64,000 nucleotides of DNA, taken from the NCBI GenBank assembly GCA_964016885.1, contig OZ024752.1, positions 26,474,001-26,538,000 of the forward strand, given 5' to 3'. This document shows positions 23,513 to 26,182 of the stretch, in pieces (position 1 is the stretch's first letter; every line of letters begins with the position of its first letter). The notes beneath the pieces were generated by a model. That model worked only from the letters and a program-made list of their open reading frames with translations, had not been told where the DNA came from and made no database searches. Made by a program: the position numbers and the translations under genes. The DNA comes from Eledone cirrhosa. Lineage: Eukaryota.

Positions 23513-24503
23513 AGTACAGCATTAAGGAAGCTTTAGTTCGCGGCCAAGCTAACGAATGCAAATTCGGTATGTAGCTTTAGCACTGGTGATGGGGAAAAGT
23601 ACCCCAATATATATATATAATCGAAGAAAATGAAGAAAGAGAAAGAGACCGTTAAAATATAGTTTCTATATGAATTTCGATGTGACAATTGTACTCGTAC
23701 CCATACAGGGTTCATAATTAAACCTTTTACCTCCCTCTGAGCCTCCGACGAGCCCAACTTATGCGTAACATGTGTAAGAGCTCCATATAAATTGTATTTT
23801 AACGGTCCGCTTCTCTGTCTTCATTTTCTTCGATTATAATTGCCCTGCTTATCTTCGCACACTAAATATTAATGCTTCTAATGTTTAACCCCGTCTGTAT
23901 AGGCATCGAGCAATAAAGCACTTGCTGCTGGCAATTAATTATCTGTATCGTTTCCTCCTATAACGTTTCTTCTCTTCTTCCCTCTATTTTCTCTCTCACG
24001 ATACTATAGCATTCGGTGGATTGACAATATCGGTAGAGGGTCGGACGCTATGCTTTGCAGCATAGAGTTACGGCCATTTATGATCTGAGTTCAAATCCCG
24101 CCGAGGTTAACTTTGCCTTTCATCCTTACAGGGTCGATAAAATAAAATACCAGTAATGCACTGGATACTTGCTGGCCTTGTGCCAAAAGTAATCAAATCG
24201 GACTGAGGAAACAACGTTTCCATTGGTCTTTCCAATTGCCAATACTATCTATCGGTCGCAACTCCATGTAGAAGGGGCAAGGTGAAATAAAATGTCTTAC
24301 TCAAGGACATAACGCATCGCCCGATATATATATATATATATATCAGTATTGGTGCTCTGAAATAGCGATGTATACATGAATGGATGTATAGTATATTTGG
24401 CAATATGCTGTATATTTAATTAAAAACATTTTGAAGACCATTCGCTATGAGTTTTAAAGTAGTGTCTACGTCACTTACTTATTCTCGGCAAAAGCAAAGG
24501 AGA

Positions 24504-24550
24504 GTAATCGACAGTCCTGTTTCTCGCTCGTTAGCGGTTATCAAGACTAC
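24504..24550 (-). ncRNA. Type-I hammerhead, U3:A8 core
   Basis: Minus strand: gtagtc TTGATAA ccgc taacga gcga GAAA cag ga ctg TC gattac. Confidence 0.72.
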
Positions 24551-26182
24551 TCAGCCCCTCGCTTCTGCCGAGAATTATAGAAGCTGTCTCAATCCTATGA
24601 TATTTTGATAGGAATAGAATGAGCCTCTGTCGGTTTCGATGATGAGTGTTCAATTTGATTCAATAAATGGAACAGCCTACTCGTGAAAGTGACGTGCGAT
24701 TAACTGAGCGTTCCGAGTACACGGATACCCTGTGTGACTTTCATTTCTCTGTGATCGATACAATTAATGACCCTTTGAATTACAGATACATCTCGTTGTT
24801 TCCAGTGGAGTAGACTGGAGCAACGTGAAGTAAACTGCCTCGATCAAGGACAGAAGGTGCCGCCGGAAATCAAGCTCTCAATCTCACGATCCAGAACCTT
24901 TCGACCTAACCATTAAGCCACGCACCTTCGCACCTGGCACAAAATAAATAGCAGTTAAATTCAAGGTATAAGGCGGTGAATTGGCAGTCATTTGAACGTC
25001 AGATAGAATGCTTTGTGGTATTCGTTTTGGCTCACCTCTCTCTGAGTTCCAATAACACCCAGGTCAACTTTCCCTTTCATCCATTCGAGGTCCATAAAGA
25101 AAAGGTACCAGTCAAGTACTGGAGGACAATTCTTCCTCTATATCACTTTCTCACTTTCCCACTCACTTTCTATTCTTCTGTGGAAGAAATCTGTTGTGTT
25201 TAAACCTGGAGCGGGATGGGCTCCACCAGGTTTAAAAACTGCCCTAAAAATTCCATAGATCAATACGACTCGCTCGGGGGTTACGGGTAATGCATACATG
25301 CAGAGTCAAAGGCCACTATTCGAAAGCGCACCGATGACAGTTCAAATATTGGGTCATCAAGTATGAGATTTGGAGAAATATGTAGAAAAAAAAAAAAATT
25401 TCTAGAAATTTCATACTTGATGACCTCAATCTTCTGATGTAAAATGTAGGACAAAATACACGAGTTCAAATTTCGCTAATGTTGTTAAATGTACTAGCTA
25501 ACGATTGGCCACCAAAGTGTGTGGCCTTATGCTAATAAAGAAAAGAGCCCATAATATCACTGCCATATGTTTTGTTATATATTATAATCTACAAATACCT
25601 GAAAATCTCTATTAAAATAACGATGCGCCCTCGTATGGATGATTTAATTACAGGAAGAAACTGTGTATTGCTATGTATTAATGTGTCTGAGATGCATACA
25701 TGTATACATACATTCAAGAATGTATATATAAATATATATATATTTAAACACACACATACACACGTGTGTGTGTGTGTTTGTGTATTTATATATATATATG
25801 TATATATTATATACATACATGCATATGCATATATATATATATCAATGTACATATGTATGTACATATATGTATGTATGTATATATGTACATATATGTATGT
25901 ATGTACATATATGCATGTATGTATGTACATATGTGTATGTATGTACATATATATATATATATGCATGTATGTATGTACATATATATATATACATCTATGT
26001 ATGTATGTATGTGCATATATATATACATCTATATATGTATGTATGTGCATATAAATGTTCATATGTACATATATATATGTATGTATGTACATATATACAT
26101 ATGTATGTATGAATGCATGTATGTATATATGTATATATGTATGTATATGCATATATATATATATATGTATGTACGTACCTAT

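What the first reader, a model, noticed from the sequence alone, without database searches (positions are those of the whole stretch)
24481..24577. One repeat family carries both C3:G8 and U3:A8 hammerheads, with compensatory changes in the enclosing helix
Seen: 24350-24580 and 63540-63730 are homologous (shared ctctgaaatagcgat, aaacattttgaagacc and stem I gtagtc/gattac). One has CTGAAGA and the other TTGATAA. Stems II and III differ in sequence yet still pair. The outer helix changes on both sides: attctcgATaaaagc/gcttttATcgagaat versus attctcgGCaaaagc/gcttctGCcgagaat. Inference: this covariation within a single window indicates selection on RNA structure and catalysis. The outer helix of about 15 bp may be a stem-I extension making tertiary contacts with loop II.
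Basis: partly seen in the sequence, partly recalled or inferred. Interest (0 to 1): 0.75.

Follow-up and report, generated by a model that had tools for sequence, protein, structure and literature searches.

The report
Retrozyme lineage that flips core pair
The two sites are an old and a young branch of one family of small non-coding repeats that carry a predicted self-cutting RNA; the family's helices change in matched pairs, and a core base pair has likely flipped between two already known forms at least twice, though cutting itself is untested.

Summary
Observation confirmed. Both hammerhead motifs lie on the minus strand and the loci are homologous (166 of 229 aligned bases). They belong to one lineage of non-LTR retrozyme-type repeats with Penelope-type ends, but to different subfamilies, each fixed for one pair. 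The window's U3:A8 subfamily has 88 of 95 copies U3:A8 and none C3:G8. The 310-bp tandem family (13,726 motif matches) is C3:G8. Covariation holds on the subfamily tree: outer helix 8.0 same-branch co-changes against 1.8 expected, stems I-III 12.8 against 3.8. What this report adds: eight age-ordered subfamilies show the 3:8 pair switching at least twice (three in the best tree). A one-switch tree is rejected at p 0.016-0.030, but not without the ribozyme columns (p 0.27). No amplified half-way subfamily was found. The outer helix more likely clamps the RNA ends than touches loop II. U3:A8, retrozymes and Penelope links are all in print, and this scan noted the swap and the arrays before on other DNA of this genome. 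No RNA holder was listed; cleavage is untested.

The parts
24344..24586 (-). Single 5'-truncated copy (about 240 bp of a roughly 315-bp unit) of U3:A8 subfamily A; its 3' end is the long (tailed) end, joined to (TA)n
24324..24343 (.). (TA)n microsatellite at the 3' end of the copy, the likely insertion target
24561..24575 (-). Outer helix, 5' arm (distal stem I)
24481..24495 (-). Outer helix, 3' arm
24504..24550 (-). Type I hammerhead motif with U3:A8 core, C10.1.A11.1 mismatch, short stem III; predicted cut between 24510 and 24509
63536..64000 (-). 3' part of a six-core head-to-tail 310-bp array (continues to L001:1870), (TA)n on both sides, short 3' end, 5' end inside the outer-helix arm
63661..63703 (-). 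Type I hammerhead motif with C3:G8 core, U10.1.U11.1 mismatch, palindromic minimal stem III (dimer type); predicted cut between 63667 and 63666
63713..63727 (-). Outer helix, 5' arm of the 310-bp unit
63639..63653 (-). Outer helix, 3' arm of the 310-bp unit

Best explanation
Both loci are genomic copies of one lineage of short hammerhead-bearing repeats with Penelope-type ends, likely non-LTR retrozymes whose tandem transcripts would cut themselves into unit RNAs that a Penelope-like retrotransposon's enzyme would copy into TA repeats. Shown: homology, tandem and back-to-back layout, two fixed 3' ends, TA targets, at least eight subfamilies of different divergence, each fixed for C3:G8 or U3:A8, and paired changes in all helices. 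Inferred: (1) selection on the master RNAs kept the fold and a Watson-Crick 3:8 pair; (2) the old subfamilies were U3:A8, one descendant (C) returned to C3:G8, the young 310-bp family is C3:G8 independently, and D is U3:A8 either by retention or by a third switch; (3) the outer helix extends stem I and, after cleavage, holds the 5' and 3' ends of the monomer together for ligation into a circle; (4) the loop II contact is made by the stem-I internal loop six pairs from the core. The window's U3:A8 copy is shorter than one unit, cannot give a monomer, and is most likely an inert fossil.
For: Homology 72.5%. Pattern counts on one stem-II scaffold: U3:A8 723, U3.G8 582, C3.A8 498 against about 43,700 C3:G8 (29,943 plus 13,726, different patterns); independent decay predicts about 7 doubles. 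Core-free patterns: subfamily A 88 of 95 U3:A8, 0 C3:G8; C 86 of the first 100 of 613 C3:G8, 0 U3:A8; D 99 of the first 100 of 1,205 U3:A8, 0 C3:G8; these tallies were counted by eye from the listings. Trees with columns 3 and 8 removed: 3 switches in the 76-row and 93-row trees, 4 in the 109-row tree; starred branches force 3, 2 and 2; a one-switch split appears in 0 of 200 bootstrap trees in each. One-switch AU p 0.030, 0.016, 0.028. Within-group divergence E 0.21, G 0.18, F 0.14, A/B 0.125, C 0.11, D 0.07, 310 0.013 matches the ladder. Outer helix 113 of 120 subfamily cells paired, 53-65 when slid by 1-3; co-changes 8.0 vs 1.8 and 12.8 vs 3.8, each reached by 1 of 20,000 permutations; RNAalifold on 16 copies: 15 of 25 pairs with double changes. 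3' ends fall into a short and a tailed class, mostly at TA, as described for Penelope-like elements (PMC11167929, PMC8557442). The 310-nt monomer folds with its two ends paired through stem I and the outer helix. Retrozyme cycle and RtcB circularisation: PMC7229834.
Against: No cleavage or RNA data. Without the ribozyme and outer-helix columns the one-switch tree is not rejected (p 0.27), and a two-switch tree is never rejected (p 0.26, 0.27). The 310 and D branches are long (0.2-0.37), copies were sampled through exact patterns mostly on contig C1, and recombination between subfamilies was checked only by half-trees with few resolved forks. The C.A mismatch at 10.1-11.1 departs from the consensus and was a rejection criterion in PMC3088659. 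The active fold is 1.9-8.1 kcal/mol above the free ensemble in 10 of 12 copies tried, and my script found no active fold in the other 2. Eight of nine Xenopus retrozyme dimers did not cleave in vitro (10.64898/2026.07.22.740005), and hammerhead mutants did not impair Penelope insertion in vitro (PMC11167929). No autonomous partner was identified.
Confidence: 0.78

Rival explanations
1. Only one switch happened: the C3:G8 310-bp family and C3:G8 subfamily C are sisters or mosaics, and the apparent repeated flip comes from long branches or recombination between subfamilies.
For: One-switch tree not rejected on the flank columns alone (p 0.27); the 310 branch is long and moves between trees.
Against: Rejected at p 0.016-0.030 on all columns; 0 of 200 bootstrap trees even on flanks only; U3:A8 copies L235 and L143 sit at the base of C, L235 being 90.6% identical to a C copy; mean distance 310 to C (0.35) is no lower than 310 to A or F (0.33).
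Confidence: 0.15
2. The outer helix is kept by DNA-level arm-to-arm copying during reverse transcription (template switching), or as a handle for the Penelope enzyme, not by selection on the ribozyme.
For: 3 of 46 two-armed junctions examined lie in the outer helix with a 16-nt overlap (L057, L211, L121); the 310 helix is perfectly Watson-Crick; hammerhead activity was dispensable for insertion in vitro (PMC11167929).
Against: G.U 10 against A.C 1 on the sense strand, where copying would give perfect pairs; stems I-III and the 3:8 pair covary too, and fold-back cannot pair positions 3 and 8; most junctions lie elsewhere.
Confidence: 0.15
3. One reading: the outer helix itself makes tertiary contacts with loop II.
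For: It is continuous with stem I and conserved in length across subfamilies.
Against: Its sequence varies freely while pairing is kept, whereas loop II keeps a Y-A-A-N-N-A pattern in most groups and an R-T-R-N word sits 7-10 nt before the core, aligned with the HH9 loops; the helix starts about 16 nt from the core.
Confidence: 0.07
4. U3:A8 copies are decayed C3:G8 copies (chance double mutants).
For: One such double mutant was seen in the unrelated ACGGTG family (L141).
Against: 723 seen against about 7 expected; U3:A8 copies have their own stems and flanks and form whole subfamilies.
Confidence: 0.01

Closest known systems
Metazoan non-LTR retrozymes (Cervera and de la Pena 2020, PMC7229834, parts 2-4 of 6 read; Li, Clavereau and Pollet 2026, 10.64898/2026.07.22.740005, parts 1-3 of 5 read)
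   Same: Tandem 250-320-bp units with one type I hammerhead each; weak palindromic stem III; the axolotl Amex2 motif also has U.U at the base of stem II; monomers, dimers and multimers coexist; Penelope-like mobilisation proposed.
   Different: Here a ladder of subfamilies with a switching 3:8 pair and a C.A or A.A mismatch at 10.1-11.1; expression, circles and cleavage not shown; the parts read report no core-pair switching within a retrozyme lineage.
U3-A8 hammerheads of Schistosoma mansoni Cercyon Penelope-like elements (Cervera and de la Pena 2014, PMC4209133, parts 1-2 of 4 read)
   Same: U3-A8 and C3-G8 forms in one retroelement family of one animal genome (about 1,300 U3-A8 hits there), mostly single copies.
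   Different: Those are minimal hammerheads in pLTRs of ORF-bearing elements with a long stem II; these have canonical-size stems and an extended stem I. No tree of switches was given in the parts read.
Natural U3:A8 core covariants (Perreault et al. 2011, PMC3088659, passages and section 8 read)
   Same: C3-G8 to U3-A8 covariation in nature, stated to be active in vitro; U10.1-U11.1 mismatch tolerated.
   Different: Scattered examples; hits with other 10.1-11.1 mismatches were rejected unless activity was measured.
Penelope-like element insertions (Frangieh et al. 2024, PMC11167929, parts 1-2 of 4 read; Craig et al. 2021, PMC8557442, passages read)
   Same: 5' truncation, inverted 5' copy, optional 30-40-bp tail from two start sites, AT-rich or (TA)n targets.
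   Different: No reverse transcriptase or endonuclease in the unit; the partner element was not identified.

Membership tests
Type I hammerhead ribozyme | Core Y3 U4 G5 A6 N7 R8 A9, G12 A13 A14, A15.1-U16.1, H17 with a Watson-Crick 3:8 pair | tested here: met
   Both copies; per-subfamily table
Type I hammerhead ribozyme | Three helices, stem I open | tested here: met
   stem III is 2-3 bp
Type I hammerhead ribozyme | Paired 10.1-11.1 (usually G-C) | tested here: not met
   C.A in the 24.5-kb copy, U.U in the 310 family; G-C only in subfamily D, A-U in the majority of sampled C. U.U is a published tolerated form (PMC3088659, PMC7229834); C.A was not found in the passages read.
Type I hammerhead ribozyme | Site-specific self-cleavage | not testable with these tools
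   No RNA holder listed
Rfam hammerhead families (clan CL00010) | Score at or above the gathering threshold | tested here: not met
   HH9 17 of 52 bits for the C3:G8 copy; none for the U3:A8 copy
Non-LTR retrozymes | Tandem units of 150-450 bp, each with a type I hammerhead | tested here: met
   310-bp six-core array; tandem pairs of older subfamilies at 253, 292 and 315 bp, and at about 318 and 321 bp from listed coordinates. The 24.5-kb copy itself is a lone truncated unit.
Non-LTR retrozymes | No protein-coding capacity | not tested
   No ORF scan was run on the units; they are about 310 bp and AT-rich
Non-LTR retrozymes | Expressed as linear and circular monomer RNA | not testable with these tools
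   No RNA holder listed
Penelope-mobilised elements | 5' truncation, inverted 5' arm, short and tailed 3' ends, TA targets | tested here: met
   Short/long/continuing/no anchor: old U3:A8 38/14/0/19 of 71; C 31/16/5/11 of 63; D 16/17/7/6 of 46; 310 family 9/5/11/1 of 26
Penelope-mobilised elements | Sequence shared with the pLTR of an autonomous element | tested here: inconclusive
   Only the neighbouring GIY-YIG fragment was compared; best match E 0.019 over 40 nt

The most novel reading that the evidence does not exclude
This genome preserves an age-ordered record of one ribozyme lineage flipping its catalytic 3:8 pair back and forth three times (U3:A8 to C3:G8 in subfamily C, back to U3:A8 in D, and to C3:G8 in the now-amplifying 310-bp family) without ever amplifying a half-way form, together with repeated changes at 10.1-11.1. 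It would be a natural series for measuring how a ribozyme crosses a fitness valley in its core.
Probability: 0.4. Interest if true: 0.58.

Novelty: new member of a known kind. Interest (0 to 1): 0.38.

Why it matters
The element type and both core forms are known, so the headline is ordinary. What is useful is the series: eight related natural ribozymes of graded age that differ in the 3:8 pair, the 10.1-11.1 position, loop II and the outer helix. It allows a direct test of whether core-pair switches need a permissive background, whether C.A at the base of stem II is tolerated, and whether cleavage matters for retrozyme spread. It also shows that searches fixed on C3:G8 and a paired 10.1-11.1 miss well over a thousand motifs in this genome (1,205 matches for subfamily D alone are nearly all U3:A8).

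Tried and rejected
Whole-window Rfam scan: the 150 rows listed of 425 were microsatellite-driven miRNA-type matches below threshold. DNA search of the genome with the 310 unit returned nothing, as the tool skips very common words; patterns were used. RNA evidence: no RNA holder listed; contigs of four runs of unrecorded kind were laid and say nothing on expression; the 340-nt contigs in X4-X6 fit a tandem repeat as well as a circle. Whether organism B's copy keeps U3:A8 could not be read, since 20 rows were not shown. Search for C3:G8 relatives of the 310 family with another stem II: 0 matches, so its long branch could not be broken. Half-way subfamily: 4 U3.G8 and 2 C3.A8 copies of C-type added to the tree scatter inside C; a third C3.A8 copy was too short and was dropped. 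5' ends at the cleavage site: none among 9 two-armed 310 junctions; about 6 of the 46 junction mappings were unreliable. Two-switch against three-switch trees: not separable. Rows dropped before trees: 80 of 156 cores (other families or truncated); 97 of 211, then capped to 93; 4 of 20. The large ACGGTG family shares the stem II pattern but gave no alignment to this lineage and was left out. R-scape was not available; a permutation test on the subfamily tree and RNAalifold were used. The idea that loop III of subfamily A pairs with the stem I/core strand as an off-switch does not explain U3:A8, which predates that loop. The host taxon was not determined; a recalled impression of a cephalopod guided two literature searches and is untested. 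Supplements of the papers were not read and may hold further variants.

Full report
Observation. Both motifs are real and lie on the minus strand. The 24.5-kb copy has core TTGATAA at 24544-24538; the 63.6-kb copy has CTGAAGA at 63697-63691; both have stem I GTAGTC/GATTAC. The loci align over 229 bases at 72.5% identity, score 229 against at most 128 in 500 shuffles. The outer helix differs by two double changes and one G.U to A-U change; the wobble exists only on the minus strand, which also folds better for the U3:A8 copy (-47.7 against -33.2 kcal/mol). Both copies have a mismatch at 10.1-11.1 (C.A, U.U). Rfam does not reach threshold.

What the loci are. The 63.5-kb locus is the 3' end of a six-core head-to-tail array of 310-bp units with (TA)n on both sides. 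A pattern for this motif matches 13,726 times in the 3.0-Gb genome, 0 in the reversed control; many listed arrays are back-to-back, minus-strand units followed by plus-strand units. The 24.5-kb locus is a lone 240-bp copy, 5'-truncated just above the outer helix, with a 3' end that runs into (TA)n. Its pattern matches 143 times, mostly as dispersed diverged copies. Across 206 copies typed, 3' ends fall into a short class and a class longer by a tail of roughly 30-40 bases, mostly followed by TA; 37 had no anchor. These are the features described for Penelope-like insertions (PMC11167929, PMC8557442), and tandem type I hammerhead units are non-LTR retrozymes (PMC7229834; 10.64898/2026.07.22.740005).

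Is U3:A8 decay? No. On one stem-II scaffold the genome has 723 U3:A8, 582 U3.G8 and 498 C3.A8 matches against about 43,700 C3:G8 (different patterns); independent decay predicts about 7 doubles. With the core left free, subfamily A (the window's) has 88 of 95 U3:A8 and 0 C3:G8; subfamily C has 86 C3:G8, 6 U3.G8, 4 C3.A8 and 0 U3:A8 among the first 100 of 613; subfamily D has 99 U3:A8 and 0 C3:G8 among the first 100 of 1,205. None of the first 100 of 723 U3:A8 matches has the 310-type stem II. These tallies were counted by eye. So the lineage carries both pairs, and each subfamily carries one.

How often did it switch? Trees were built from natural copies with columns 3 and 8 removed (76, 93 and 109 rows). 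They give a ladder E-G-F-A-B-C with D near or in C and the 310 family on a long branch near A/F. Within-group divergence falls in the order E 0.21, G 0.18, F 0.14, A/B 0.125, C 0.11, D 0.07, 310 0.013, which I read as age. The best trees need 3, 3 and 4 changes; starred branches force 3, 2 and 2; no bootstrap tree of 200 has one. Holding all C3:G8 rows together is rejected at p 0.030, 0.016 and 0.028 but not when the ribozyme and outer-helix columns are removed (p 0.27). Holding C together without D is not rejected (p 0.26, 0.27), so two and three switches cannot be told apart. U3:A8 copies L235 and L143 sit at the base of C, L235 being 90.6% identical to a C copy, so that switch happened over a short stretch of master evolution; single-change copies scatter inside C and form no subfamily. 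Direction rests on the age order, since the tree has no outgroup. Caveats: two long branches, sampling by exact patterns mostly on contig C1, and a weak recombination check.

Covariation. Using majority letters per helix column for eight subfamilies, 113 of 120 outer-helix cells pair (103 Watson-Crick, 10 G.U, 1 A.C), against 53-65 when slid by 1-3 columns. On the subfamily tree, same-branch changes of both partners number 8.0 against a permutation mean of 1.8 for the outer helix (14 pairs), 12.8 against 3.8 for stems I-III (14 pairs), and 20.8 against 4.8 for all 28 pairs, reached by 1, 1 and 0 of 20,000 permutations. RNAalifold on 16 copies gives 25 pairs, 15 with double changes, covariation term -5.1 kcal/mol; three of its pairs join the core to stem III and are not the active fold. 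The structure was taken from the window copy, which favours the paired count but not the co-change test. R-scape was not available.

Role of the outer helix. In the HH9 alignment the internal loop six pairs from the core and the six-base loop II line up with the HH9 loops, and both keep recognisable words across subfamilies. The outer helix lies beyond that and changes sequence freely. In a monomer cut at both ends it pairs the 5' end with the 3' end, which would favour ligation; RtcB circularises such monomers (PMC7229834). It also acts as an occasional junction between the two arms of an insertion: 3 of 46 junctions, with 16-nt overlap. That keeps DNA-level copying as a rival for the outer helix, but not for stems I-III or the 3:8 pair.

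Against the reading. No RNA or cleavage data. C.A at 10.1-11.1 is off-consensus (PMC3088659). The active fold lies 1.9-8.1 kcal/mol above the free ensemble in 10 of 12 copies and was not found by my script in 2. Most Xenopus dimers tested did not cleave (10.64898/2026.07.22.740005), and Penelope insertion in vitro did not need hammerhead activity (PMC11167929). No partner element was found; the GIY-YIG fragment at 61685-62086 shares no clear sequence with the units.

Novelty. Natural U3:A8 covariation is published (PMC3088659), including beside C3:G8 within one Penelope family of a blood fluke (PMC4209133). This scan already noted the 310-bp arrays and a C3:G8/U3:A8 sister pair on other pieces of this genome. 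I found no paper on repeated switching within one retrozyme lineage in searches, which cover open-access text only; supplements were not read. Verdict: a new member of a known kind, real covariation, with a moderately interesting and partly supported history of repeated core-pair switching. Interest 0.38.

Noticed in passing
window 61685-62086 (+), within 61648-63215: Open frame of 133 aa with a GIY-YIG domain (Pfam PF01541, E 1e-7), inside a stretch flanked by a 123-bp inverted repeat at 96.7% identity; looks like the 3' fragment of a Penelope-like element.
   Followed up: partly
window about 56900-57900 (-), cores at 57485 and 57041: Two tandem copies of another hammerhead family (stem I ACGGTG/CATCGT, C3:G8, U.U at 10.1-11.1); it makes up most of the first 100 of 29,943 matches and does not align to this lineage.
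   Followed up: partly
window 44823 and 61459 (+): Two further hammerhead-like motifs found by the descriptor; the one at 44823 lies in a near-palindromic stretch after (TA)n. Five descriptor hits in 64 kb.
   Followed up: no
L154, L155, L156 (G000:C1): A family with stem II G-TCC/GGA-C shows U3.G8 in 4 of the first 100 listings and C3:G8 in one arm of L155; whether a wobble-core subfamily exists was not settled.
   Followed up: partly
L022 and window 57485 family: An ATGCAAAT octamer (label recalled, from no call) occurs upstream of the hammerhead in subfamily E and in the ACGGTG family; could be part of an snRNA-type promoter.
   Followed up: no
about 45-75 nt upstream of the core, all subfamilies: A second hairpin with a conserved TCTATAAG word and differing arms between the 310 family and older subfamilies; covariation not tested.
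   Followed up: no
runs X4, X5, X6: The 310 unit is about 99% identical in contigs labelled organisms B, C and D; related hosts, contamination and transfer were not told apart.
   Followed up: no
G000:C1 arrays listed: Each 310 array is uniform for its N7 and loop II variants across both arms while arrays differ, as expected if one RNA templates a whole array.
   Followed up: partly
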